64,000 nt of DNA from Sphyrna mokarran (taxonomy: Eukaryota): contig JAGIQG010000003.1 of NCBI GenBank assembly GCA_024679065.1, forward strand, positions 85,250,001-85,314,000, in the 5' to 3' direction. Numbering within the stretch: the first letter of the stretch is position 1; each line of letters starts with the position of its first letter. The position numbers and the translations under genes were made by a program. Positions 19,487 to 59,970 of this stretch are shown here, in pieces. The notes below the pieces were generated by a model. The model was not told the DNA's origin. It made no database searches and worked only from the letters and a program-made list of their open reading frames with translations.

Positions 19487-20660
19487 AGAGAGATGGCAAA
19501 TGGAATTTAATCCGGATAAATGCGAGGTGATGCATTTTGGCCGGAATAATGTAGAGGGGAGTTATAGGATAAAAGGTAAAACTATCCGGAGTATAGAGAC
19601 GCAGAGAGACCTGGGGGTGCAGGTTCACAAGTCTCTGAAGGTGTCAGTACAGGTGGAAAAGGTGATAAAGAAAGCGTATGGTATGTTAGCCTTCATAGGA
19701 AGGGGTATAGAATACAAGATTAGGAGTTTGATGTTGCAAGTGTATAGAACGTTGGTTAGGCCTCACTTGAAGTACTGCGTCCAGTTCTGGTCGCCGTACT
19801 ACCGGAAGGATGTGGAATCCCTGGAGAGAGTGCAGAGGAGATTTACCAGGATGCTGCCTGGTATGGAAGGGCTGTCTTACGAGGAAAGGTTGAACATACT
19901 GGGGTTGTTTTCCCTTGAAAGACGTCGGCTGAGAGGGGATCTATTAGAGGTATATAAGATTATGAGGGGTATAGATAGAGTAAATGGTGGTAAGCTTTTT
20001 CCACCATTAGAATCGGATAGAACGAGGGGTCACGGCCTTAGGGTGAGGGGGGCTATGTATAAGACGAATATTAGAGGGCATTTTTTCACACAAAGGGTAG
20101 TGGGGGTGTGGAATGCACTACCAAGTAAGGTGGTGGGAGCAGGCACACTAGGGTTGTTTAAGGGTCTCTTGGACAGCCACATGAGCGGTCTGCAGATAGA
20201 GGGATATAGGAGGACTGTTTAAATACTTTAATTGTTTCCACAGGCTATTCGGTCCACCTTGTTGACCAACAAGGTGCATGCATTCGGCAGGTAGTGCGAG
20301 GGCTGCTCCTGGAGGTTACTTCAGGAGTGGCCTAGTGCTTCACGTCGTTAGTGTATGCTTAAACTGGACCATCAGATGGGCAACATGACAGCTCAGAGAC
20401 TATCGCTGTTGCTGTGCAGACACATGGATTTGGGCCTGTGTCTGCGGGAGTTTGCGCGTTCTCCCCGTGGTTGCGGGGGTTTTCTCCGGGTGCTCCGGTT
20501 TCCTCCCACATCCCAAAAATGTGCTCTTAGGCTGATTGGGTAACAAATTGTCCCTATATTGGTCTCTATATGTCATTAAGACGTTAGGATGGCGGCGTGG
20601 GCTCGTTGGGCCGAAGGGCCTGTTTCCCATGCTGTGTTGTTCTTTGTTCTTTGTTCTTTG
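19487..20660 (+). mobile_element. Young CR1/HER1 LINE, 5'-truncated, with composite V-domain 3' UTR (copy 1)
   Basis: Uninterrupted ORF2 C-terminus WQMEFNPDKCEVMHFG...LVRPHLKYCVQFWSP...RRLRGDL...FFTQRVV (stop at 20222), extended UTR and (gttcttt)n tail. Confidence 0.92.
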
Positions 20661-21034
20661 AAGATTGAAGTGGATGGTGTCAGTCTGGAACAAATAAGTT
20701 TGCCTAATTGGGACAAATGATAACAGAAGATGGTGGATGTTGAAATTAGATGAAGAGTAGAAAGAGACAGGAACATTTTGTGAACATGATGTTTATGTTC
20801 AGAACAGGAAAACTCAAACTTGCAATAAAGACAATACTCCTAAGATGCTACATTCTATGCACTTCCCTATCTGCCTCAGAAGCCTGGACAATAAATAAAA
20901 ATGTTTGGAAGAAAATAGAGCCTGTGAGATATGAATGACAGGGCACATACCACAAATTCTATAAACAGAATTGAAGACAAATGAATGAAATTTTAAGAGC
21001 AAAATTAATTCTACAAAGTGATTCTTTTCTAAAT

Positions 21035-21662
21035 CTTTTCTAAATAAAGATTACAAGTCTTGGGACATCACTGGGAATCTATTGATTCCTGTGGACCTTC
21101 CAACATATTTCATGGCTCACTTGCTTTATTTCTGCACTTTTGGGGATTCCATAAATGTCTGTCTAAGTTGTGCATGTTTATTGATGTCTTTGCTTTTACT
21201 TCCCAGGTGATTCGATCCACCTTGTTGACCAACATGGGGCATACACACGGTGGGTTGTGTGAAGGCAGCTCTTGGATGTTGCTTTGAGAGTTGCCTAGTG
21301 CTTCACGTCGTTAGTGTACACTTAAACTGGACCATCTGATGGGCATCACAACAGCTCAGTGACTATCACTGTTTGCTGTGCAGATACATGGATTTGGGCC
21401 GGTGTCTGCGGGAATTTGCACATTCTCCCCATGATTGCGTGGGTTTTCTCCAGGTGCTCCGGTTCCCTCCCACATCCCAAAAATATGCTCTTAGGCTGAT
21501 TGGTGTAACAAATTGTCCCAAAATTAGACTTCCCTCAATCTTCCCCGATAGGTGTAGACAAAGTTCATAGGTACAGGAGGGCACTCATAATGGTAAAATG
21601 GTGGCACGGGCTTGTTGGGCCAAAGGGCCTGTTTCCTGTGCTGTGTTATTCCTTGTTCTTTG
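21035..21662 (+). mobile_element. Composite V-domain 3' module without recognisable ORF2 (copy 2)
   Basis: Homologous to copy 1 from 21207 onward; ends gggcctgtttcctgtgctgtgttattccttgttctttg. The 5' boundary is approximate. Confidence 0.8.
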
Positions 21663-24280
21663 TAATATCAAGAAAAATGTTTGTATTTTGGTAATTAATC
21701 AGAGCTGAAAAGCTAAAAGGTCTCTCCTCAAGGAGAATGCAAAGCTGTCCTCAATGTAGTTGGATGATGGACATGACACAGAGTTTCAGATCAGCTATGT
21801 GAGAGGATGTCTCAAGACAAGGCCGTAACAGCAGATTTCCTGGGAGGAATAGTGACAGGTAACCTCAGTGGCAGCAAATGCCACAGCCCTTCATTGAGTC
21901 CTGGCATCTTTACATACCTCTTCAGTCAGTAGTGACACCTTTATTCCCCCTCCTGCTCTCATTCAGCGTTGTCCTTAGTTCTCTACCCTTCCTTCCACTG
22001 CTCTTTGGCTCTCCAGATGGTTGTCTGGCAGGGACAGCAGTGAACTCTCACTTTCCATGTCCACTGACCAGACAGGTTTCTGAAACCCTGCTGTCCCATG
22101 TGCCATTGACTAAATTAGAAAACAGCCATATAATTTGGGTTAATTACTGCTTTAACTACTTCAATTGATGTTCCATTGCGTCACAGTGAGAGGCCCATCC
22201 CCCACGTTTCCCGCGGCAGATAAAATGAGGCAGGATTATCTCAATGTCAGACTGCTGGCTGACAGCGTCCCCAGCACATCCCCCATCGCACTCTGAATCA
22301 GCAAGTCAAATTTCAACCTTCATGTTGTCACCAGCTATTGGCTACATTAACAAGTCAACAAGAAAGCCAAGTGGTGTTGATCAGCTATGGGAATGATTAA
22401 AGGCTTCCCAGTCTGGACATTACCAATAGTGCCCAGTGTGCTGAATGAGAGGTACAGAGTGTTGCAATGGGAAATGTTGTAGTCAAGACATTCAGCATCT
22501 ATTGATTGGTGTTAAGAGGATGAAATTGGTTCAAAGAGTGAAATAGGCTCACGGTCAATCAACAGCCTGAATGCAACAAGTGTCTCATTTGTATGAATCA
22601 TTTAGTATTATTGGTACAGAACAATTTTATCCTTCCCCCATGTTCTGATGTGGGCTGCACTTCTGTGACATATAAATGATTATCTACCAACAGTGCATCA
22701 GTGACTCATGACACTATCAATTGACAGCACATATTTTAATTATATCACAAAAGCCACTGTGCAGTTAAATTAGGACCTAGAGGACAAGCACAGCAGGGAT
22801 GTAGTTAGAATGAGACCTTGTCCATGCGAAGGACTTTCTGACTTAATCCTCAATGAGCTGAATTGTGCCACTTAAACAGAGCAGTGATAAATGTAGAGTT
22901 TTGGTTCAGTTGGGAGCTATTCACAGAGACTCCAGGTTCAAACAGATTTTTGATGATCTAACTGACCGTGTATGTTTGTGTGTGTGAGTGTCTGTGTGCA
23001 CGTGTTTGGAATAACAGCAATTATTCATTTCTCAGTTATTAAATCTGGCTGAGAAACTATGACTGCCACAGCAGAGCAGACAGGTTCATTCAATTCTCCA
23101 TTGTACAGACATACAAAGCAAAGACTGATGGGTGAGCCAATCAAAAATATCTAAGTGCTGAAAGATTGTGAAAACGGAAGATTTTTAGAACCACTTTTCT
23201 TGGCGTGAGAAAAATGGCTGACTGGCACCCCAGCCCACTGTCTGCAAGCTGCTCTTGGTTAGCACCAAGCAAGGAACATTCAATGTGACAATACAGTTGC
23301 TCAAAAGCAATTAGAAGTCACTTCTGATTTGCAAAGTGCCACAATTTAAATCAACGGGGTTATGGAGAAGAGCAGTTGCTCACCAAGTGACTAGGTTTAA
23401 AAGTAGGAGTATCTCACTTTGCAAAGACCAGACTCAGCAGCAGCAGGAAGCTAGGAAGACAACGCCATTCTTTAACGTATTAAAAAGTGCTACAAAGAAC
23501 TATTAACAATGATGATATTAAGAGGGTTATTTATAATCATTAAGGATAATATGTGTGGAAAACAAAATCAAAGTGAGTGATAGTCATTATAAATGAAGCA
23601 GTCTATGGACTAAAGAAAGAAATGAATGTGCTTTCTGGTTTTGTGGGAATTGCAGAACTGCTGAGAATTAGTCATAAATCTAATTGATATTTTTGAAGAA
23701 CTTACTCACAAATCAATTACTCATTGTGAGAATGTGTACAGTGCCCATATTTCAAACTCAAAGTCAGTCCCTTGTATGCTGATGCTATTTCTTGTCGATA
23801 AAAGGCAATCCTGAAGCATTTGTAACAATGTTAAGCGAAAGCACCAAGCCAATGATCCATCTTGCCCTCCTCTGGAAGCCTCCACTTTCACAGGTCCCAG
23901 TCTTCAGCCAATTTGATTCACTTCAAGTGATTTCACAAAATGCTTGATAACATCCTGGTAATAGTGCAGCAGAACTCAGCTCTCAAACTACTGGCAGCAT
24001 TAACCAACCTGTTCCAGTACGGTTATAAAACACCAGAATCCACCCAACAGTCCGGAAAATTGCTCAGGTATATCCTTGTAAACAAAAAGCAAGAAAAATT
24101 CAAAGCAGTCAATTCAATCTACTCTCAATCATCAGCAAAGTGATGGAAAGTATTGTCAATAATGCATTCAAGAGACATTTACTCAGCAGGAAGCTGTTCA
24201 TTTAAGTTAGGTTTGGGTTCTGCCAGGACATTTGGCCCTAGATTTCATTACAGCCTTGGTCCAAACAAGCACAAAAGACC

Positions 24281-25742: not shown

Positions 25743-25866
25743 TCTATCCACAATCTACAAGGCACAAATCAAGAATGTGCTGGAATATTTTCCACTTGCA
25801 TGGATGAGTGCAGCTCTAACAAAATTCAAGAAGCTCCACACCATCTGGGACAAAGCAGCCTGTTTG

Positions 25867-27103
25867 TGAGGTGATGCATTTCGGGAGAAAAAATGCATGG
25901 GGGGAGGTATATGATAAAGGGTAGACCTATTAAGAGTATAGAAATGCAGAGGGACCTGGGGGTGCAGGTGAACAAGTTTCTGAAGGTGGCAGAGTAAGTG
26001 GAGAAGGTTGTGAAGAAAGCATATAGTATGTTAGCCTTTATAGGAAGGGGAATAAAGTACAAGAGCTGGCCTTTAATGTTGCAGTTGTATAAAACGCTGG
26101 TTAGACCTCATTTGGAATACTGAGTCCAGTTCTGGTCGCCTTACCACCGGAAGGACGTGGACACTCTGGAGAGAGTGCAGAGGAGGTTTACCAGGATGCT
26201 GCCTGGTATGGAAGGTCTGAGTTACGAGGAGAGATTAGGCAAATTGGGATTGTTTTCCTTAGAAAGACGTAGACTCGGAGGAGATCTAATAGAGGTGTAC
26301 AAGATTATGAGGGGTATAGATAGAGTAAACAGGGTTAAGCTTTTTCCTAGGATGGACTCAAATAGCACGAGGGGTCACGGGCTTAGGGTGAGGGGGGTAA
26401 GGTATAATTTGGAATCTAGAGGGAGTTTTTTCACACAGAGGGTGGTGGGGATATGGAAAGCGCTGCCAAGTAAAGTGGTGGAGGCAGGTACTCTGGAGAT
26501 ATTTAAGAGATACTTAGATGGGCACATGAACAGAATGGGAATGGAGGGGTATAGAAAACTGATTTAAAATGGGGATCATGAGCCTTGGGAGTCGCTGAGA
26601 AGTGTGTAAATAGATGATGATATTGATGTACTTGTTTTTATCCTACAGTTGCTTTGGTCCACCTTGTTCTGTAACGAGGGGCATACACGTGATGGGTCGT
26701 GAGAAGGCTGCTCTTGGATCTTTTTCGAGAGTATCCTAGTGCTTCACGTTGTTAGTGTACGCTTGACCTGAACCATTTGATGGGCAACACGACAGCTCAG
26801 TGACTATCGCTGTGCTGTGCAGATACATGGATTTGGGCCTGTGTCTGTGGGAGTTTGCGCATTCTCCCCGTGCTTGCGTGGGTTTTCTCCGGGTGCTCCG
26901 GTTTCCTCCCACATCCCAAAGATGTGCTCTTAGGCTAATTGGCAAAACAAATTCTCCCTAAATTGTCTCAAATTTGGTTTTTAATCCACAGATCTATAAA
27001 CATGGACAGGGATCGCGGATAGAGGTGGGAACATCGGGGTGGTGGTGCGGGCTTGTTGGGCTGAAGGGCCTGTTTCCCGTGCTGTTTTGTTCTTTGTTCT
27101 TTG
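25867..27103 (+). mobile_element. Young CR1/HER1 LINE with composite V-domain 3' UTR (copy 3)
   Basis: ORF2 C-terminus (ORF 26157-26567 ...YLDGHMNRMGMEGYRKLI), same UTR module; tgtttg at 25861-25866 and 27102-27107 is a TSD overlapping the tail. Confidence 0.92.
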
Positions 27104-28599
27104 TTTGATTGACAGTCCTTCCAGAAACATTCACTCCCTCCATCACCAATGCACAGCAGCTGTGCATACCATCTACAAGATGCACTGTTCCTTAGGCATC
27201 ACCTTCCAAACCCACAACCCACTACCATTCAGAAGGACAGGAGCAGCAGATACCTGGGAACACCACTATCTGGAAGTTTCCCTCCAACTTATTCACCATC
27301 CTAACCTGGAAATATATCACCATCCCTTCACTATCACTGAATTCCCCCCCTAACAGCACTGTGGGTGTACCTACATCATCTGGGCTGCAGCTGTTCAAGA
27401 TGGCAACTCACCACCACTTTCTCAAGGACGATTAGGAATGGGCAATAAATGCTGGTCTAGCCAATGACATTCACATCCCATAAATGAATAAGGAAATGCA
27501 TAACATATAGATATGAGGGAGGGAATATACCTCTATCATCAGTCAACTGGGTCTGCAGTGTGTAGACTCCAGAAGAAGCACTGCAACAATTTGCAAAAGC
27601 TTTTTATCGTGAATAAAGCAAGGCAGAGCTATAGACTCCACAAGGTAATTCAAAAAGACATGAGGCTTGAACATGCTCCTTTCGTTTGCAGGGAACAGGT
27701 TCTTGTGTATGAAAGCATGTCTTTTTAAGCAAATGTAAATGAGGTATGTTATAAACTTGAGGGATTATTTTAAATTGGCTTTACCTCACTGCTTTGGTAT
27801 AAAAATTCTGCAACCACGTTTTCCTAACAGCACTGTGGATGCACCTACACCAAATAAACTATGGCGGCTCAAAGAAGAGACACACAAATGGCCTGCTCAA
27901 GGGCAATTAAGGATGGGCATTGAATACTGGTCCAGCCAGTGATGCCCACAACCTGCGAATGAACAAAAAATAAACAGTCCATCTCTCTGCCAGGAAAATA
28001 GTCAACCCAGCAAACTGTGGCAATTGGATCAGGGACCATTTCACTCCTTGTGGCTCATCTTTAGCACACTATAAATCCTAAAACCAAACAGCAGGGAAGG
28101 AGGCCCTTCAGCCCATCAAGAATCTGCTGAATCTCTCAAAGACCTATCCAGTTAGTCCCACTTGCATTATCTTTCCCCCCACCCCAGAAACCTGCTTATG
28201 TTCATGTTTTTATGCAAAGATCTGGATAAACACGGGACAAGTTATTGTGGCCATTGTGGCAAAAGTTTTCCTTTTCAAATTACCATAAATGTGGTTTCAG
28301 ACACAGGCTCAATGAAAGAAGGACTCAGAGTATAGGGCTGATCTTGCCTGGCGTTTTCAACTAATACAGTTCATTCTGTAATTCATCAGATACGTTCTTT
28401 TGATGACAATTACTTGTGTTGAGTTTCTCAATAACATGGAAAGCAAATAGTTGTGTTATGTGGAAGCCAGCAACATACACACGCACAATCCCAGACTGTT
28501 CAATAATTGCACCAGATTAAAAATCATTAAATAAAGAGTCCTGTACAATGTCACACCTCCAGGACATATCTTATCTTTAATATAACATTATCATCAACT

Positions 28600-29555
28600 C
28601 TGTAAACTTGAACTCGTCCAATTCTCCACTGCCCCTGTCCTAATAAACACTAAAACCCGTTGCTCCATCATTCATCCATCACCCCTTTGCCAACTGACTT
28701 CCACTAGCTCCTGGTTAAGCAACATCTTGATTTTAAGTCTTGCCCTTGTTTTCAAAGCCATGGCCTCACCCCTTCCTAGCTCTCTAATCTCCTCCAGTCC
28801 CACAACCCTCTGATATATCTACATCAGGACACAGGCAGCAAGTACATAGGAATGCCACAACTTGGGAGCTCTCTCAAGTTGTAGGAAGCTGAGGAGTGAT
28901 CTTATAGAGGTCTATAAAATAATGAGGGGCACAGATCAGCTGGATAGTCAATATCTTTTCCCAAAGATAGAGGAGTCTCAAACTAGAGAGCATAGGTTTA
29001 AGGTGAGAGGGGAGAGATACAAAAGTATCCAGAGAGACAACTTTTTTCACACACAGTTTGGTGAGGTCTGGAACAAACTGCCACAGGTAGTAATAAAGGC
29101 GGACACAATTTTGTCTTTTAAAAAGCATTCAGACAGTTATATAACTACGATGGGTATAGATGGATATGGGCCAAATGCAGGCAACTGGGATTAGCTTAGG
29201 GGCTTCTAAAAAATGGCGGCATGGACAAATTGGGCCAAAGGGCCTGTTTCCATGCTGTAAACTTCTATGACCCTACAAGTGACTCATCATGCCGACTTAA
29301 AATCTAATTCTGGCCTTTTGAGCATCCCCATTTTAATTTTCCAGTGTTGGTGTCTGCACCTTCAGTTGTCGGGTCTTGAGGTTTGGAATTCCATCCCTAA
29401 TCCTCGATTTCCACCTTTAATTTGCTTCTTAAAACCCACCTCTATAACAAAGTCTTTGGCCACCTTCCCAATAACTCTTCATGGGGGGCTTGGTGTTAGA
29501 CTTAGTTTCATAATGTTCCTTTGAAGCACCTTGAGGTGTCTCATTACATTAAAAC
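28600..29555 (+). mobile_element. L2 3' fragment interrupted by a conventional HER1 LINE (about 28870-29275)
   Basis: L2 motifs (catcacccct...gacttccactagctcc; tggaattccatccct) flank ORF 28862-29194 (LRSDLIEVYKIMRG...GYGPNAGNWD), which has a short HER1 UTR lacking the composite module. Confidence 0.8.
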
Positions 29556-41490: not shown

Positions 41491-42482
41491 CAAAGAACAA
41501 AGAACAAAACAGCACGGGAAACAGGCCCTTCGGCCCAACGAGCCCATGCCGCCTCCCCGATGTTCCCATTTCTACCCGCGATCCCTGTCCATGTTTATAG
41601 ATCTATGGATTAAAAACCAAATTTGAGACAATTTAGGGAGAATTTGTTTTGCCAATTAGCCTAAGAGCACATCTTTGGGATGTGGGAGGAAACCGGAGCT
41701 CCCGGAGAAAACCCACGCAAGCACGGGGAGAATGCGCAAACTCCCACAGACACAGGCCCAAATCCATGTATCTGCACAGCACAGCGATAGTCACTGAGCT
41801 GTCGTGTTGCCCATCAAATGGTCCAGGTCAAGCGTACACTAACGACGTGAAGCACTAGGATACTCTCGAAAAAAAATCCAAGAGCAGCCCTCTCACGACC
41901 CATCGCGTGTATGCCCCTTGTTAGACAACAAGGTGGACCAAAACACCTGTAGGATAAAAACAAGTACATCAATATCATCATCTATTTACACACTTCCCAG
42001 GGACTCCCAAGGCTCATGATCCCTATTTTAAATCAGTTTTCTATAACCCTCCATTCCCATTCTGTTCATGTGCCCATCTAAGTATTTCTTAAATAACTCC
42101 AGAGTACCTGCCTCCACCACTTTACTTGGCAGCGCTTTCCATACCCCCACCACCCTCTGTGTGAAAAACTCCCTCTGGCATCCAGATTATACTTTACCCC
42201 TCACCCTAAGCCCGTGACCCCTCGTGCTATTCGAGTCCATCCTAGGAAAAATCTTAATCCTGTTTACTCTATCTATACCCCTCATAATCTTGTACACCTC
42301 TATTAGATCTCCTCTAAGTCTACGTCTTTCTAATGAAAACAGTCCCAATTTGTCTAACCTTTCCTCGTGACTCAGACCTTCCATACCAGGTAGCATCCTG
42401 GTAAACCTCCTCTGCACTCTCTCCAGAGTCTCCACATCCTTCTGGTAGTAGGGCGACCAGAATTGGATGCAGCATTCCAAAT
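41491..42482 (-). mobile_element. Young CR1/HER1 LINE with composite V-domain 3' UTR (copy 4)
   Basis: ORF 42187-42480 CR1 C-terminus; UTR nearly identical to copy 3; CpG-rich; caaagaacaaagaac tail on the plus strand. Confidence 0.92.
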
Positions 42483-44314: not shown

Positions 44315-45264
44315 GTTGTATAGTTGTATAGAACGTTGGTTAGGCCTCACTTGGAATACTGCGTCCAGTTCTGGTCGCCGTACTATCGGAAGGATGTGGA
44401 GTCCTTGGAGAGAGTGCAGAGGAGGTTTACCAGGATGCTGCCTGGTATGGAAGTACTGTCTTATGAGGAACGATTAAATAGACTGGGGTTGTTTTCCCTT
44501 GAAAGACGTCGGCTTAGAGGGGATCTCATAGAGGTGTATAAGATTATAAGGGGTATAGATAGAGTAAATAGAGGTAAACTTTTTCCACCTTCAGAAATGG
44601 ATAGGACGAGGGGTCATGGCCTTAGGGTGAGGGGGCTATGTATAAGATGAATATTAGAGGGCAGTTTTTCACACAAAGGGTAGTGGGGGTGTGGAATGCA
44701 CTGCCGAGTAAGGTGGTGGGAGCAGGCACGCTGGGGCTGTTTAAGGGTCTCTTGGACAGCCACATGAGCGGTATGCAGATAGAGGGATATATTAGGACTG
44801 TTTCACTACGGCTTTTTTCCACAGGTAATTCGGTCCATAATTTGAGCACGCATTCGGCAGGTGGTGCGGGTACAGCTCTTGGATGTTGATTCATGGGTTG
44901 CCTGGTACCTTATGTCGTAAATGAGTGCTTTATGTGGACCATCTGAAGGGCACCATGACAGCTCAGAGACTATCGATGTGGCCGTGCAGACACTTGGAAT
45001 TGGGCCGGTGTCTGCGGGAGTTTGCGCGTTCTCCCTGTGGTTGCGTGGGTTTTCTCCGGGCACTCCAGTTTCCTCCCACATCCCAAAAATTCACTCTTAG
45101 GCTGATTGGGAAACAAATTGTCCCTATAGTGAGAGTCTTCCATATTAGGAATAACCTAAATCTATAATAGGATAATGGAATTGCTACTATATAGTTATGA
45201 CGGCGGCGCGGGCTCGTTGGGCCGAAGGGCCTGTTTCCCGTGCTGTGTTGCTCTAAAAAAAAAA
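44315..45264 (+). mobile_element. Young CR1/HER1 LINE with composite V-domain 3' UTR (copy 5)
   Basis: ORF2 C-terminus closely related to copy 1 (LLDSHMSGMQIEGY), diverged UTR module, A-rich tail gtgttgctctaaaaaaaaaa. Confidence 0.92.
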
Positions 45265-45659
45265 TATCTGGAATTAGCGACAGTCAGAAGCAAGTGAACA
45301 GAGGCTATTAGATGTGTGCATTACAATGAAGTACAGATTAAAAATAAGAAGTAGAAGTATTCTGAATGGAAGAATGTTGATTTGTGTAGAAGCAGAGAAA
45401 TTCAGATCACTGGTTCATTGAGAATACAGGCAGATAAAGTCATAAAATGGAGAATCACATTTGGATTTTATAAATAGGGACTTGAATGCATGAATAAAGA
45501 AGCAAGAATAATTTTATACAACATAATAAATAGGACACATTTACAGTACTATATGGAGTCTTAGACACTGATTATGGAAAATATATTGAAGTCAGATAGA
45601 ATGCAGCGTTGATTTACAGGAAACAGAAAGACTGAGAAACTTTGGTAATGAGGTGAGAC

Positions 45660-49590: not shown

Positions 49591-50196
49591 TTTGGGTTCT
49601 GAACTTCCTTAAAAGCAGTCCAGCTCTAAAGGCTTCCAGCCTGACAGAAATTCATCTGAAATGCTTTCCGGATCATTGGAGATCAGGCTGATCTGCCACC
49701 ATTCACACTTACCTCATCTACACCTACAGACTGTTTCTTTCATTTGTACACAAACATGAAGCTTGGGGACCCTCAGAAAGTTGTAATGCAATGATTCAGT
49801 GGGAATTCCCCAGGAAGGATGAACTTCTGATAAGCAATTTTCCTGCTCCTCCGTTCCTCTAACAAAGTTCCCGACTCAGTTTGGATTCCTCTGATTAACT
49901 TACCTGGAGGTACTCAAGAAGAATTAGAAAAATATTAGTCTAACCCCTGGATAGCTTTATAACTGACATCCCTGATTCCCTGCCCCTATCCAACCCAAAC
50001 CAGCTCCCACAACCTGACTTTCCCTGACCAACATGATTAGCCCTCACCTGATTTAACTGCTCCCCCATCACCCAACTCGTTCACCTGACTCCTTGATCAG
50101 ACTTGACTAGTCCCCAGCTTCTCCATCCACACTCTGACCCACCTAATCCAGCTGTCATACTATCCATCTGCCACCATACCCATCCTCTACTGATCT

Positions 50197-53100
50197 CAGG
50201 ATCATTTGGGAGGCAGAGACAGTTATAGATAAAAGCTACAGAGAGGTAGTTACTCTTAGAAATAAAGGTACTTGGGTGACTGTTAGAACGGGTAAGAGAC
50301 AGTCAGTGCAGTGATCCCCTGTGGCCGTTCCTCTGCATAACAAGTATACCATTTTGGATATTGTTGGGGGGATGACTTACTGGGGGTAAGCCGTAGAGTA
50401 CAGGTCTCTGGCACAGAGTCTGTCCCTGTTGCTCAGAAGGGAGAGGAGAGGAGTAGAGCATCAGCCATGGGGAACTCTAATAGTTAAGGGGACAGATCGA
50501 AGATTCTCTAGGAACAAGAGAAACTCTTGGTTGGAGTGTTGCCCACAAGGTGCCAGGGTCCTGGTCCACATAGGCACCAAAGACATTGGCAGGAAAAGGG
50601 ATCGGGATGTAAGAGAGAAGTTCAGGGAGTTAGGGTGGAAGCTTAGAGCTAGAACAAACAGAGTTGTTATCTCTGGTTTATTACTTGTCCCACGTGCTAG
50701 TGAGGTGAGGAATAGGGAGAAAGAACAGTTGAACATGTGGCTACAGGGATGGTGTAGGAGGGAGGGATTCAGATATCAAGATAATTGGGGATCATTCTGG
50801 GCTAGGTGGGACCTTTACAAATGGGATGACCTACACCTGAACCAGAGAGGTACCAATATCCGAGGAGTAAATTTGCTAATGCTCTTCAGGAGGGTTTAAA
50901 CTAATTCAACAGAGGGATGGGAACTTTAATTGTAGCTCCAGTATACACAGGAGGTTGGGAGTAGTGAGATCATGAATAAGGTTTCACAGGAATGTAATGG
51001 CAGGCAGGAAGGTGGTTTGAAGTATGTCTACTTCAATGCCAGGAGCATCTGGATTAAGGTGGGTGAACTTGCAGTATGGGTTGGTACCTGGGATTTCGAT
51101 TTTGTGCGCATTTCAGAGACGTGGATAGAGCAGGGACAGAAATGGTTGTTGCAGGTTCCGGAGTTTAGATGTCTTCAGCAAGATCAAGGAAGGTGGTAAA
51201 GAGGGATGCCAGTTACATAGTTATAAATTCCATCGGTTGGCTGGATGGGATTTATCCTAGGATTCTCTCAGAAGCTAGGGAGGAGATTGCAGAGCATTGT
51301 TAGTCAAGGACAGTATTAGGGTGGCAGAAAGGACATTTGATCAGGACTCATCTACTGAGGTAACATGGACTGAGGTTAGAAACAGGAAAGGAGAGGTCAA
51401 CCTGTTGGGACTTTTCTATAGGCCTCCAAAAAGTTCCAGAAATGTAGAGGAAAGGATTCCAAAGATGATTCTGGATAGGAGCCAAAGTAACATGATAGTT
51501 GTTATGGGGGAATTTAACTTTACAAATAATGCTGGAAATGCTATGGTTCGATTATTTTAGATGGTCAGTTTTTCTCCAACGTGTGCAGGAGGGTTTCCTG
51601 ACACAGTATGTAGATAGGCTGACAAGAGGCAAGGCAGTATTGGTTTTGGTATTGGATAATGAACCAGGCCAAGTGTTAGATTTGGAGGTAGATGAGCACT
51701 TTGGTGTAATGACCACAATTCGATTACGTTTACTTCAGCGATGGGAAGAGAGAGGGATATATATGACAAGGCAAGAGTTATAGCTGGGGGAAATAATGAT
51801 GCGATTAGGCAAGATTTAGGATGCATAGCATGTGGAAGGAAACTGCAAATTATGGGCACAATTGAAATGTGGAGCTTGCTGGAAGAATAACTACTGCATC
51901 ACCTTGGTTAGTATGTACTTGTCAGGCAGGCAGGAAATGGGTCAAGAGAGGAAACCATGGTTTACTAAAGAAGTTGAATCTCTCGTGAAGAGGATACTTA
52001 TGTAAAGATGTGACATGAAGACCCAGTTAGAGTGCTTGAGAGTTACAAGTTAGCCAGGAAGGACCTAAAGAGAGAGCTAAGCAGAGCCAGAAGGGGACAT
52101 GAGAAATCTTTGGCAGGTAGGATCAAGGAAAATCCTAAAGCTTTCTGTAGATGTGTCAGGAATAAAAAAATAACTAAAGTAAGAGTGGGACCAGTCAAGG
52201 ACAGTAGTGGGAAGTTGTGCATGGAGTCCAAAGAGATAGGGGACGTGCTAAATGAATATTTTTCGTCAGTTTCACACTGGAAAGACAATGTTGTCAAGAA
52301 TACTGAGATACAGACCATTAGACTAGATGGGATTGAGGTTCATAAGGAGAAGGTGTTAGCAATTCTGGAAAGTATGAAAAGAGATAAGTCTCCTGGGCTG
52401 GATAGGATTTATTCTAAGATTCTCTGGGAAGCTAGGATGGAGATTGCAGAGCTTTTGGCTTTGATCTTTATGTCGTCATTGTCTACAGGAATAGTGCTAG
52501 AAGACTGGAGGATAGCAAATATTGTCCCCTTGTTCAAGGAGTAGAGACAACCCTGATGATTATAGACCAGTGAGCCTTACTTCTATCGTAAGCAAAGTTT
52601 TGGAAAGGATTATAAGAGATAGAGTTTATAATCATCTAGAAAGGAATAATTTGATTAGGGATCGTCAACAAAGTCTTGTGAAGGGTAGGTCGTGCCTCAC
52701 AAACCTTACTGAGTTCTTTGAGATGACCAAAGAGGTCGATGAAGGTAAAACAGTTGCTGTGGTGTATATAGTTTCAGTAAAGCGTTTGATAAGTTTCCCC
52801 ATGGTAAGCTATTGCAGAAAACACGGAGGCATGGGATTGAGGGTGATTTAGTAGTATGGATCAGAAATTAGCTAACTATAAGAAGACAGAGCGTGGGAGT
52901 TGATGGGAAATGTTCATCCTGTAATTCAGTTACTAGTGGTGTACCGCAAAGATTTGTTTTGAGGCTACTACTGATTGTCATTCTTATTAATGACCTAGAT
53001 GAGGGCATAGAAGGATGGGTTAGTAAATTTGCGGATGACATTAAAGTCAGAATTGTAGATAATGGTGAAAGATGTTGCAGGTTTTAGAGGGGCATAGATA

Positions 53101-53898
53101 AGCGGCAGAGCTGGGCTGAGAGTTGGCAAATGGAGTTTAATGTGGACAAGTGTGAGGTGATTCACTTTGGAAAGAATAACAGGAAATACAGAGTACTGGA
53201 CTAATGGTAAAATACTTGGTAGTCTGGATGAGCAAAGAGATCTCGGTGTCCATGTGCATAGATCCCTGAAAGTTGGTACCAAGGTCGATAGGGTTGTTAA
53301 GAAGGCGTACGGTGTATTAGCTTTTATTGGTAGAAGGATTGAGTTTTGGAGCCGTGAGGTTTTGTTGCAACTGTATAAAACTCTGGTGCGGCACACCTGG
53401 AGTACCGTTCTGGTCGCCGCATTATAGGAAGGATGTGGAAGCATTGGAAAGGGTGCAAGTAGATTTATCAGGATGTTGCCTGATATGGTGGGAAGGTCTT
53501 ATGAGGAAAGGCTAGGGAACTTGTGACTATTTTCATTAGAGAGAACGTTAAGAGGTAATTTAATAGAGACATACAAGATGATTAGGGGATTAGATAGGGA
53601 TAGTGACAGCCTTTTTCCTTGGATGGTGATGGCTAGCACGAGGGGACGTAGCTTTAAATTGAGGGGTGATAAATATAGGACAGATGTCAGAGGTAGGTTC
53701 TTTACTCAGAGTTGTAAGGACATGGAATGCCGCCTTGCCTGCAACAGTACTGCACTCGCCAACATTAAGTGCATTTAAATAGTCATTGGATAAACATATG
53801 GATATTGGAATAATGTAGGTTAGATGGGCTTTAGATTGGTTTCACAGGTCAGTGCAACATCGAGGGCCAAAGGACCTATACTGTGCTGTAATGTTCTA
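50197..53898 (+). mobile_element. Near full-length CR1 LINE (SGNH-esterase ORF1, APE endonuclease + RT ORF2), pseudogenised
   Basis: ORF1 VHIGTKDIG, VVISGLL, DDLHLNQRGT; ORF2 YFNARSI, ISETW, YRPP, GEFN, YRPVSLTS, KGRSCLTNL, SGVPQ, KFADD; many frameshifts; TSD tgatct at 50191-50196 and 53899-53904. Confidence 0.93.
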
Positions 53899-56800
53899 TG
53901 ATCTGCCACCCTTACACTTACCTCATCCACACCAACAGACTGCTTCTTTTATTCATACACAAACACTTACCAGAATATGAGACTAGTGCCATAAGAAGAC
54001 AGCCTGACTTCTACAGATGCTCTTTGCTACTTTCTGCTGAGCGAGTTCTGCTGGACCCTCCATCAGGAATTGGAGTCTTCACTGTACGCACTAAGTGGAT
54101 AATTTACTGTCTGATCAGAACTGGACATAGATGTTCCCTCCTCAGGTTTCACGTGAATTCGTCTGCACACTGATGTTGAGTGTTTTCAGCAGTTTTGGTT
54201 TTTATTTTTGTTAAAGATGAGATGGAGATACTTGCATCAAATAATTCATTTTATTTAAAAGGCACAGACTACAGTTTGTTTTTGCTAGTTACTTAAATCA
54301 CAGAAAAAGGACAGTTTTATAAAAGTACTTGAGCATTGGAAAGAAATATTAAAGTTTCCAATTCGTGAACTATATATTTTCTCTCAAAGCTGTAATAATT
54401 ATTTTTATTTAATTTCATGTCTAAAAGTTATTACAAAGGCTGAACAACCAGAATGCTCACATATTTATATTCCCATAACCAGCACATGCTTTTGATTTTG
54501 CTGCATAGATGGTGTAGCCCAGACTAACATCCCCAGGAGCATTGTACCTGAAAAATTGATGAACAACACAAGTGCTTCACACCAGTTTCAGAAGTATTAT
54601 TATAGCACAATGGGGAATGTCTTCAGAGCAACTGGAAAGTTTATCAAAAACTGAGAAATATTACTTATAAATATAACTTAGAGGCAAAGCTTGTGACAGG
54701 ACTTCACAAAGAGTCAATATTGCAGCCAATAAAGTCTATTTACTGAATAAATAATGTTCATTGCAAGGGTCTTGACAAACTACAGCAAACAGAACTGATA
54801 ACATCTTGTTCCTTTCCTTATCCTCTCCCACTGAATACTTTTGCCTAAATAACACATCAACTATGAGGGAAGTCAGTCTATCCATGGGTCTGAGGTGGTG
54901 GCCAATCAAAATTATGCTAGTCTATGCAGGTTTCATTCAGGCCCAACTTTAAACAAAGTGGTGATTGTGGAAGTGCCAAGATTGTTCCTTACAGCATTAC
55001 TAAATGAAAACCCTGAATGTACCATGTTTCAAACTAACTCAATCCTAACACTCTGACAACAACCCATAACTTTATGGCAAAAAGGAGAGAGTTTTCTCTG
55101 CTAGCCGAATTCACAATTCCAGTTGACATATGGATTGACTCATTAATATCAGTGAAATATCTGTCCTTTCAGACTTTGGCTCGATTTGGAGATACCATTC
55201 TGAACTGTGTAATGTTATAGTAAAGTGCTGGTGATTCTGGGTATTGGTAGTGTTAAGAGGAGCAGTTGGAGGTGGTGCATTAGGTCTGTCACACTGTAAA
55301 GCACTACTCTGATCTTTGCTTATCATTTACCGGCAGCAGTTAGCCTACTAACAAGACTGGAATACAGTATGCTAACCAATGCATTAATCCAGTGTTTGAT
55401 CCATGCCCAAATTATGGGACACTTGTTCAGTATTTCTGATGGGTGCACATTAGCAAACTCTTCTCAGAGTTTATGAAATGAATCCGCAACTTCAAAGTTA
55501 ACACGAATACGGTTGGAAAAGAGGAATAATCTCTGGAGTTATATGAAATTCAGGCAAAGTGTCGCTAAAATGTCTTGTGGAAGATCCAATCATTTCTTTA
55601 TGTTTGACCAGATTCACACAGCGATTTATGCCACTCATGGATTCATACGTACAGTACTCAAGCACCTGGTGTGAGACTCCCCAATGAGAATGTCATATAT
55701 TCAAAGAGATGGGACATGAACTTGTCAGTACCAGGTGATAAAAGTAGAATTGTTTGGCTAATGTTCCTTTTGGAAGCTCCTGTATTAAAAAAATGTCCTT
55801 CAACTGGAATGCAATTAAAAAAGACTATGCTACTGAGATAACTGTTATACTAGAGGGTTAAACTTTCATCAGATGTCTATCTTCATGCTGCACAGTTAGA
55901 TGCACGCTGACAAAATGCGCATTATGTAAGGAGCAATCTGGGCACTTGATAGTCTTCTGATTCCCTGATACAGCACAACAAATCTCTTAACTACTCCAAG
56001 AACAATCTGAGCAGACAAAGAGGCAAGACAAGGCAGCAACATAAAATATGGATTTCTTAAAATGTTGGTGACTAATATGTGATCAATTTCTAACATAAAC
56101 CTGCAATGCTAAATGAAGTGAAATTTAATTACATAGATTAAGTTTGCTACACATATATTTTTATGAGATGTTATATAAAAATGCTTTCCCAAGCAATCCA
56201 ACAAATGCTTGATTGATTAAGTATTTTGGCCTTGTTTACCACAGGTCTCCAAGCAATAATCATTTGAATAAGATTGCTGGCTAAAATTGTTTGGTCGCAA
56301 TCCAAAATATAACTCGCACGTAATAAACAAGATACTTTGGCATTCAAAGAAATGCTTACATTGAGATCTCTGCTGTTGTTGCACTTTGAAAACAACATGA
56401 TTTCATAGGAAATAACCTGTGGATTCTCCTGCTATTTGTATAAATGAATCCTTGGCCGGTCCTTTCCTTTGGATATTTTACCTCCTTCTGGTCCAGTTTT
56501 CCTCTGAAGATATCAGTATGCCCTAGCTTATAATTTAATAGAATTAGCCTTTTTCCTGCACCTCATCCAGTGCTATTCCAGTGCAGCCTATGCAATTGGT
56601 TGTATGGGGGTGGGAAGGAGAGGGGAGGATCCACAATAATTGCACTCTGCAACCAGGGGAGACAAACTAAATGTCCACTGTAGTATTTCTATGATGTCTG
56701 CACTTCAGCATAAAATCTGAATATGTACATAAAACAGACAGACACACACACAGGTTTAAATAGATAGCAAGCATTTCAGAATCAGTGCCGAAGGAGTTCA

Positions 56801-58611: not shown

Positions 58612-58960
58612 AAGGTTCTAGAAATAGTCAGAAGATCTGGCACCATGTGTGGAGAGAGAAACAGAGGTAATGTTAGCTCATCAGAATAAACCTCACTGAC
58701 CGGCCCCGACTATCCTCGCTGACCGGCCCTGACTGGCCCCAACTATTCTCATTGACCAGCCCTGACTGCCCTCGCTGACCGGCCCCCACTACTCTCACTG
58801 ACTGGCCCTGACTGCCGTCACTGACTGGTCCTAATAACTCTCACTAACCAGCCCTGACTGCCCTCTGTGACACTTATGAAAAGTCTTTTCTAACCTAAAA
58901 TGTTAACTCTGTTTCTCTCTCCATGGTTGCTGCCAGACTTGGTGAATATTTCCAGAATGC
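58612..58960. mobile_element. Palindromic Penelope-like element
   Basis: Inverted arms tctggcaccatgtgtggagagagaaacagaggtaatgtt / aatgttaactctgtttctctctccatggttgctgccaga. Confidence 0.7.
58691..58865. repeat. GC-rich minisatellite, about 22-23 bp unit (cctcactgaccggccccgactgc)
   Basis: About 8 degenerate tandem units. Confidence 0.9.
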
Positions 58961-59851: not shown

Positions 59852-59970
59852 TTGACCGGCCCTGATGCCCTCACTGACCGGCTCTGATCGCCTTCACTGA
59901 CCGGCCCCGACCATCCTCACTGACCGGCCCTGATGCCCTCACTGACCGGCCCCGACCGCCCTCAGACCAG
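59852..59970. repeat. Second array of the same minisatellite
   Basis: About 5 units of cctcactgaccggccc(t/c)ga. Confidence 0.9.

What the first reader, a model, noticed from the sequence alone, without database searches (positions are those of the whole stretch)
20223..20660. CR1/HER1 LINE lineage whose 3' UTR contains a V-SINE-like unit (LINE-SINE chimera, five copies)
Seen: copies at 19487-20660, 21035-21662, 25867-27103, 41491-42482(-) and 44315-45264 share one architecture. After the ORF2 stop come about 140 nt of unique conserved sequence, a degenerate tRNA-like head (gggcaacacgacagctcagtgactatcgctgtgctgtgcag, compare the HE1 head ggcagcacggtggcacagtggttagcactgctgcctcacag), the V-domain (gtctgcgggagtttgcgcgttctcccc...ctccggtttcctcccacatcccaaa...ttaggctgattgg), a variable linker and the HER1 tail. 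The conventional HER1 at 28870-29275 has none of this. Known: HE1 V-SINEs borrow the HER1 3' tail. Inference: here the relationship is reversed. An autonomous LINE has fixed a SINE in its UTR and kept it through subfamily divergence (two ORF2 variants, at least three UTR variants), or LINEs of this type are the donors of the V-domain. Either would suggest the V-domain is useful in cis to a retrotransposing RNA. I cannot tell whether this is already catalogued.
Basis: partly seen in the sequence, partly recalled or inferred. Interest (0 to 1): 0.75.

Follow-up and report, generated by a model that had tools for sequence, protein, structure and literature searches.

The report
LINE carrying a conserved captured SINE
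A family of jumping genes in a shark-like genome once swallowed a smaller parasitic element and has kept it unusually well preserved, next to an RNA hairpin and a splice-like signal, which hints that the captured piece now helps its new owner spread.

Summary
Confirmed and extended. Five 5'-truncated copies of one CR1 lineage carry, after the ORF2 stop: a 19-163 nt spacer ending in a polypyrimidine tract plus CAG, an ~85-nt hairpin, a tRNA-derived head with its B box deleted, a V-domain, a variable linker and a CR1 tail stem-loop. The hairpin folds on the sense strand only, with 5 of 33 pairs compensatory. The module follows the ORF2 tree (22 of 26 informative sites), so it was captured once. 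Between ORF2 subfamilies, head+V differs at 7-13% of sites against 30-41% of ORF2 four-fold sites, as slow as the tail. The direction is SINE to LINE; LINE as donor of the V-domain is not supported. The element is not shown to be HER1: ORF2 is 46% identical to the window's ordinary copy. Best reading: a structured 3' RNA module kept by selection in cis, possibly a spliced terminal exon. The main rival is homogenisation by gene conversion. A 2016 paper states that no such domain was known in LINEs; Repbase, Dfam and shark genomes could not be checked.

The parts
19488..20222 (+). c1: 3' part of CR1 ORF2, 244 codons open, stop at 20220-20222; 5'-truncated
   Evidence: elasmobranch and bird RT proteins among the hits
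20223..20243 (+). c1: spacer ending in polypyrimidine tract + CAG (3' splice-site-like; CAG ends at 20243)
20276..20358 (+). c1: long imperfect RNA hairpin (34 pairs, 9 G-U), sense-strand specific
20378..20438 (+). c1: decayed tRNA-derived V-SINE head; A box altered, B box deleted; predicted to refold into two small hairpins with the start of V
20439..20558 (+). c1: V highly conserved domain
20559..20588 (+). c1: variable linker (about 30-77 nt across copies; unalignable between subfamilies)
20589..20660 (+). c1: CR1 tail stem-loop and 7-mer terminal repeats (presumed RT recognition site)
21035..21663 (+). c2: copy truncated at about the ORF2 stop; 163-nt spacer, CAG ends 21206, full module
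25865..27104 (+). c3: second ORF2 subfamily; stop 26565-26567, 81-nt spacer, CAG ends 26648, full module; possible 6-bp target duplication
41491..42482 (-). c4: same subfamily as c3; stop 42030-42028, CAG ends 41947, full module
44315..45262 (+). c5: ORF2 sister to c1; stop codon lost, CAG ends 44824, most divergent hairpin, ends in an A run; possible 6-bp target duplication

Best explanation
A distinct elasmobranch-type CR1 lineage acquired a V-SINE once, in sense, just after ORF2, by insertion, read-through or template switch. The SINE's Pol III promoter died. What remains (acceptor-like site, long hairpin, remodelled head, V-domain) is inherited with ORF2 and works as a structured cis-acting module of the LINE's own RNA, so master copies that keep it retrotranspose better. 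Shown: anatomy, single origin, co-inheritance, slow change of head+V, sense-strand hairpin with compensatory pairs, acceptor-like composition. Inferred: selection in cis (about 0.65). Mechanism I favour (about 0.3): the module is a 3'-terminal exon. A donor in the unseen 5' part of the element splices onto the CAG and removes ORF2, giving a short RNA (ORF1 message or Pol II-made SINE-like RNA) that keeps the RT-binding tail. Unspliced RNA is what is copied in cis, which is why genomic copies keep the acceptor. The hairpin and V-domain would stabilise the RNA or help load it onto the RT particle.
For: Head+V differs at 13, 14 and 24 of 180 sites for c1/c3, c1/c4, c3/c5, against 16/46, 18/44, 13/43 ORF2 four-fold sites (Fisher p 8e-6, 5e-7, 0.012). 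Between subfamilies that is as low as the tail (10-17%), while spacer and linker on either side are barely alignable. Informative sites in the module support (c1,c5) 11 times and (c3,c4) 11 times, with 4 conflicts, matching ORF2. Hairpin z-scores -5.5, -1.8, -2.0, -3.2, -4.4; sense MFE -32 to -48 against antisense -17 to -21 kcal/mol; 92% of cells paired, 5 of 33 pairs changed on both sides, 0 of 500 shuffles reach the covariation score, although the region diverges by up to 39%. All 5 copies keep CAG with 11-13 of 15 pyrimidines, 27-37 AG-free nt and a branch-like motif, while the tract letters differ at 7-9 of 15 between lineages and the spacer varies eightfold. ORF2 differences rank third > first > second codon position. 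Two unnamed proteins at 82% and 89% identity end at the same ORF2 position.
Against: Only five copies and about four lineages from one window; no full-length copy, donor site or transcript seen. 0 of 5 copies is a spliced retrocopy. c3 and c4 differ at 1 of 181 head+V sites but 55 of 799 elsewhere (permutation p 0.006), which suggests conversion. Within c1/c5, head+V (16/181) is not much below four-fold sites (8/59). Pair-keeping changes in the hairpin are 22 of 31 against 7.3 expected at random, but 18.0 if all were transitions (p 0.10). The tool warns that related sequences can beat shuffles without structure, and the structure was derived from these same sequences. The head/V hairpins show no covariation signal (140-221 of 500 shuffles) and the V-domain alone does not fold well (z +1.1). 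c5 misses my 28-nt AG-free cut-off by one base; 108 of 8781 AGs in the window pass it, and the site was picked after the fact. In human L1, splicing inhibits retrotransposition (PMC5860796, abstract).
Confidence: 0.6

Rival explanations
1. Single capture, but the V-domain stays alike because it is a hotspot of gene conversion or template switching among copies of this family, not because it is selected.
For: c3/c4 near-identity confined to head+V, with 7 CpGs kept in both while 6 tail differences are CpG-type. Recombination-hotspot model is one of three proposed for such domains (PMC5804259, passage).
Against: Head+V still carries subfamily-diagnostic sites matching ORF2 (11 of 13 informative sites). 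It has not been converted by the more numerous free V-SINEs (17 of 126 V columns and 36 of 86 head columns fixed differently). It does not explain the strand-specific hairpin or the kept acceptor.
Confidence: 0.2
2. Neutral passenger: the SINE and 140 nt of flank were picked up once and persist only because reverse transcription starts downstream of them.
For: The V-domain also rides in the DNA transposon MER6 after a SINE insertion (PMC6887750). The hairpin region diverges 21-39% between subfamilies, near the silent-site range.
Against: Spacer and linker, equally carried, have changed in length and sequence while head+V has not. Compensatory pairs in the hairpin.
Confidence: 0.1
3. The module is an independent SINE-like element that repeatedly joins CR1 3' ends; c2 is a free copy.
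For: Variable junction; c2 lacks an ORF2 reading. One-off Alu/L1 chimeras are common in humans (452 cases, PMC13174262, passages).
Against: c2 starts in sequence homologous to the c4 post-stop spacer. Module and ORF2 trees agree. No Pol III B box. The possible target duplications of c3 and c5 flank ORF2 plus module together (6 bp, weak).
Confidence: 0.06
4. LINEs of this type are the source of the V-domain, which SINEs took along with the tail.
For: LINE UTRs gave rise to some SINE bodies (RTE and Vingi cases, PMC5786205, passages). By eye the c3 V-domain differs from the published MER6 row at 10 of 102 columns, against 16 of 100 from the majority of free copies here, so it may be close to an old state.
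Against: The LINE carries a decayed tRNA head upstream of V, the mark of a SINE. Other CR1 ends in the window lack V. V-SINEs occur in cnidarians, molluscs and insects.
Confidence: 0.04

Closest known systems
CR1 LINE HER1 and V-SINE HE1 of sharks and rays (listed as a pair in the table of PMC3747384; Ogiwara 2002 not held, 1999 not requested)
   Same: CR1 ORF2 end, tail stem-loop and V-domain. The tail is 34-39 of 46 identical to the ordinary CR1 end at 29 kb and folds the same way.
   Different: Here the V-SINE sits inside the LINE, lacks a Pol III promoter, and follows an acceptor-like site and hairpin found in neither partner. ORF2 is a separate clade (97/99).
MER6/MER6A MITE (PMC6887750)
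   Same: A V-SINE captured by another mobile element, with its head lost or disabled, then spread by the host element.
   Different: MER6 moves as DNA, so V has no RNA role in its transposition. Here the carrier is a retroelement with coding-type ORF2 divergence, and V can be compared with silent sites.
Alu/LINE-1 chimeric insertions (PMC13174262)
   Same: A sense SINE joined to a LINE; shows that ligation or template switching can form such chimeras.
   Different: Those are single events. This chimera founded a family with at least two ORF2 and four UTR variants.
L1 splice sites and SpIREs (PMC5860796)
   Same: Splice signals inside a LINE RNA.
   Different: L1 sites lie in the 5' UTR and ORF1 and give dead ends. 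This site is after the ORF2 stop, appears maintained, and its use is untested.
SINE bodies derived from LINE UTRs (PMC5786205)
   Same: Exchange of modules between LINEs and SINEs.
   Different: Opposite direction; the passages seen concern RTE and Vingi, not V or CR1.

Membership tests
CR1-clade LINE | ORF2 C-terminal region homologous to CR1 RT proteins | tested here: met
   938 and 2697 hits; named ones include shark and ray proteins at 53-69% and bird RT proteins at about 36-53%. The stretch lies after the RT core and has no Pfam hit.
CR1-clade LINE | 3' stem-loop plus short terminal repeat; frequent 5' truncation | tested here: met
   Same two-helix fold in 5 of 5 copies and the ordinary copy; 7-mer repeat in 4 of 5, A run in c5; all truncated.
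CR1-clade LINE | Full EN-RT ORF2 and esterase ORF1 (autonomy) | tested here: inconclusive
   244 open codons in c1 and codon-position pattern of constraint; no full-length copy of this clade in the window; genome-contig scans gave none.
HER1 family | Close identity to the HER1 consensus | not testable with these tools
   No Repbase or Dfam; Ogiwara 2002 not held.
   46% identity over 95 aa; different clades.
V-SINE | V highly conserved domain | tested here: met
   79-84 of 100 columns match the majority of 8 free copies; motifs occur in published V alignments.
V-SINE | tRNA-derived head with A and B boxes | tested here: not met
   B box 4 mismatches in 5 of 5 copies against 0-2 in 8 of 8 free copies; A box 2-3 against 0-3 (box patterns recalled); 18-19 gap columns.
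V-SINE | Free-standing short element with its own 5' end | tested here: not met
   5 of 5 copies continue 5' into LINE ORF2 or its post-stop spacer.
Known structured RNA (miRNA, snoRNA, ribozyme, 5S, SECIS) | Match to an Rfam model | tested here: not met
   0 at gathering over 64 kb; 3 matches at E 1.2-4.2, all far below threshold, over 20150-21700; no tRNA.
Functional 3' splice site | CAG, pyrimidine tract, AG-free zone, branch motif | tested here: met
   5 of 5 have CAG and 11-13 of 15 pyrimidines; 4 of 5 pass the 28-nt AG-free cut-off (motifs recalled, no trained scorer available).
Functional 3' splice site | Use in transcripts | not testable with these tools
   No RNA data. A protein search with one post-CAG frame of c4 gave 0 of 3 candidates, weak evidence.

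The most novel reading that the evidence does not exclude
This is a LINE that has domesticated a SINE highly conserved domain for its own RNA and wired it as a spliced terminal exon behind ORF2. The V-domain would then be a general cis-acting enhancer of retrotransposition, which would explain its conservation across animals, and the element would make its own SINE-like or ORF1-only RNA by splicing.
Probability: 0.25. Interest if true: 0.88.

Novelty: new variant of a known kind. Interest (0 to 1): 0.63.

Why it matters
Why SINE domains such as V stay conserved for hundreds of millions of years is an open question. PMC5804259 lists three untested ideas and marks one down because no such domain had been found in LINEs. 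A LINE carrying V supplies an internal yardstick, the silent sites of ORF2, and in this window V beats it. It also supplies an autonomous carrier in which V can be deleted or mutated in a retrotransposition assay without a Pol III promoter or a partner in trans. Either result, selection in cis or conversion hotspot, tests one of the standing ideas. A maintained acceptor after ORF2 would be an unusual way for a LINE to express itself, and a route for host exons to gain a CR1 tail.

Tried and rejected
Known RNA origin of the 140 nt: no Rfam or tRNA match. A third ORF: frames after the CAG close within 0-43 codons and differ among copies; the 63-codon frame across head+V in c1 is shifted in c2, c3 and c4 and gave 11 weak hits, best E 7e-7, 48-76% over partial stretches. 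Those 11 unnamed hits may be human MER6 translations and were not examined, so whether any carries this head stays open. DNA palindrome or MITE: antisense folds poorly and there are 7-9 G-U pairs per copy. Pre-miRNA: 4-6 nt loop and no 22-mer conserved in all five; judged unlikely from recalled criteria. Escape from HUSH through the acceptor: splice sites alone did not protect reporters (PMC8770142, passages). Linker as relic of the ORF2 end or SINE body: 1 of 15 comparisons notable (c4 against a free SINE body, 1 of 500 shuffles), unresolved. Whether the tail came from the LINE or with the SINE: closer to three ordinary LINE tails (32-39 of 46) than to two others (23-30 of 45) or four free SINE tails (23-31 of 46); unresolved. 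Outside DNA: genome contigs gave 0 motif matches and 1 weak unrelated locus of 550 candidates. One search had three CAG positions off by one, redone. c5 and two short fragments fell out of the ORF2 tree through my locus bounds and a 90-residue cut; c5 differs from c1 at 40 of 478 ORF2 bases. Unchecked: viral and metagenome contigs, shark assemblies, Repbase, Dfam, the Zenodo consensus set of PMC13343379, supplement file 1 of PMC4824008, bioRxiv supplements.

Full report
Observation. The five copies are real. A model built from them scores them at 335-392 bits, as expected for training sequences; the next 12 matches (13-64 bits) fall on free V-SINE-like repeats and 5 more are weak (22 matches in all). 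c1, c3, c4 and c5 have CR1 ORF2 3' ends; c1 is open for 244 codons to a stop at 20220-20222. c2 has no ORF2 reading, but 21031-21078 matches the c4 ORF2-end/spacer (1 of 5000 shuffles; 4 of 1246 other windows), so it is most likely truncated at the stop. The closest named proteins are from sharks and rays, so the window is inferred to be elasmobranch. The V-domain label is supported by published alignments holding the same motifs. The names HE1 and HER1 are recalled, and no consensus of either was seen.

Anatomy. After the stop comes a spacer of 19-163 nt, then CAG, about 30 nt of lead-in, an ~85-nt hairpin, the head, V, a linker of about 30-77 nt, and the tail. Conservation starts sharply at the CAG. 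All five have 11-13 of 15 pyrimidines before it, 27-37 AG-free bases and a branch-like motif, while the tract letters differ at 7-9 of 15 between lineages. 108 of 8781 AGs in the window meet the same rule, c5 misses it by one base, and 1 of 5 ordinary LINE ends has such a site, just past its tail. The copies are related, so this is one site, chosen after the fact. The hairpin folds with z from -1.8 to -5.5, lower than 95-100% of 856 GC-matched windows, on the sense strand only. 5 of 33 pairs change on both sides and 0 of 500 shuffles reach the covariation score; against a transitions-only expectation the excess of pair-keeping changes is not significant (22 of 31, p 0.10). The head aligns to free V-SINE heads but lacks about 18 nt including the B box. 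Its predicted small hairpins show no covariation. The tail folds like the ordinary CR1 tail.

History. ORF2 of c1, c3 and c4 groups with five unnamed proteins (97/99), apart from the ordinary copies at 29, 48 and 53 kb (39 rows; c5 dropped by my bounds). The four copies aligned form one clade against 8 free SINEs (100/100). 22 of 26 informative module sites support the ORF2 split (c1,c5)(c3,c4). One capture, from SINE to LINE, followed by vertical descent, is the simplest account.

Constraint. Between subfamilies ORF2 four-fold sites differ at 30-41%, the hairpin region at 21-39%, the tail at 10-17%, V at 8-12% and the head at 5-15%. Head+V against four-fold sites gives Fisher p 8e-6, 5e-7 and 0.012 for three of the four cross pairs, which are not independent. 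Linkers do not align between subfamilies (0 of 3 pairs). Against a simple reading: c3 and c4 differ at 1 of 181 head+V sites but 55 of 799 elsewhere (p 0.006 after scanning), though both show decay after insertion. That points to conversion, chance, or young copies of different masters.

How it most likely works. Established: CR1-type LINEs need their 3' end recognised by their own RT (PMC3747384, passages). Shown: a dead-promoter V-SINE, a sense-strand hairpin and an acceptor-like site are kept in the UTR. Inferred: they act on the LINE RNA in cis (about 0.65). My committed mechanism (about 0.3) is a terminal exon: splicing from a 5' donor onto the CAG gives a short tail-bearing RNA without ORF2, while unspliced RNA is copied in cis, so genomic copies keep the acceptor (5 of 5 do). 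No transcript, donor or spliced copy was seen; one protein search for a post-CAG peptide was empty. Rivals: conversion hotspot 0.2, neutral passenger 0.1, independent SINE 0.06, LINE as donor 0.04.

What is known. PMC5804259 (passages; supplement) says no such domain had been found in LINEs. PMC6887750 (part 1 of 5, passages, supplement hits) describes V captured by the MITE MER6. PMC13174262 (passages) reports 452 one-off Alu/L1 chimeras. PMC5860796 (abstract) finds that splicing inhibits L1. PMC5786205 (passages) covers LINE-to-SINE transfer. PMC13343379 (abstract, passages, data statement, supplement search) surveys vertebrate CR1 groups; its text has 'UTR' once and 'SINE' once, and its consensus set is on Zenodo, unseen. 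PMC8770142 (passages) argues against a HUSH role. PMC4824008 (passages, 2 of 3 supplement files) and PMC5499810 (part 1 of 6) give background. Ten searches listed no paper describing this UTR, and four diagnostic motifs had 0 hits. The library lacks most subscription papers, Ogiwara 2002 was not held, and Repbase and Dfam were out of reach, so a catalogued consensus may exist without comment.

Verdict. It works like a CR1 with a structured 3' RNA module; it is not a V-SINE and is not shown to be HER1. Interest 0.63, limited by five copies, no expression data and unchecked repeat libraries.

Noticed in passing
window 26782-26962(+) against the matching head+V of c4 (about 41812-41632, -): c3 and c4 differ at 1 of 181 head+V sites but 55 of 799 elsewhere (permutation p 0.006). 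They lie 15 kb apart in inverted orientation; conversion is possible.
   Followed up: partly
window ~50220-53901(+): A near-full-length ordinary CR1 with an esterase-type ORF1 remnant (Pfam Lipase_GDSL_2, E 4e-9) and an RT remnant; its ORF2 is in another clade and its tail differs.
   Followed up: partly
window 49689-49756 and 53899-53965: A 68-bp, 88% identical direct repeat, the second copy starting at that LINE's 3' end; possibly an unusually long target duplication.
   Followed up: no
window 13.5 kb(-), 17.3 kb(+), 37.1 kb(+), 59.3 kb(+); tail only at 35.6 and 40.5 kb: A second kind of free V-SINE with a different tail ending in an A-rich motif, beside the CR1-tail kind at 9.1, 29.7, 32.9, 34.8, 47.3, 60.2 and 62.3 kb.
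   Followed up: no
window 26843-26942: By eye the c3 V-domain differs from the published MER6 row at 10 of 102 columns, fewer than from the majority of free copies here (16 of 100). The donor may not be the local V-SINE, or the free majority is eroded by CpG decay.
   Followed up: partly
window 44803-44805 and 45250-45265: c5 has lost the ORF2 stop, so its frame reads on into the module, and it ends in an A run instead of the 7-mer repeat.
   Followed up: no
window 58691-58865 and 59853-59964: Two related 23-bp tandem arrays about 1 kb apart.
   Followed up: no
P0049, P0070, P0125: CR1 ORF2 proteins 66-68% identical to c1 are labelled as bacterial and nest among elasmobranch CR1s; probably animal DNA in those assemblies.
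   Followed up: no
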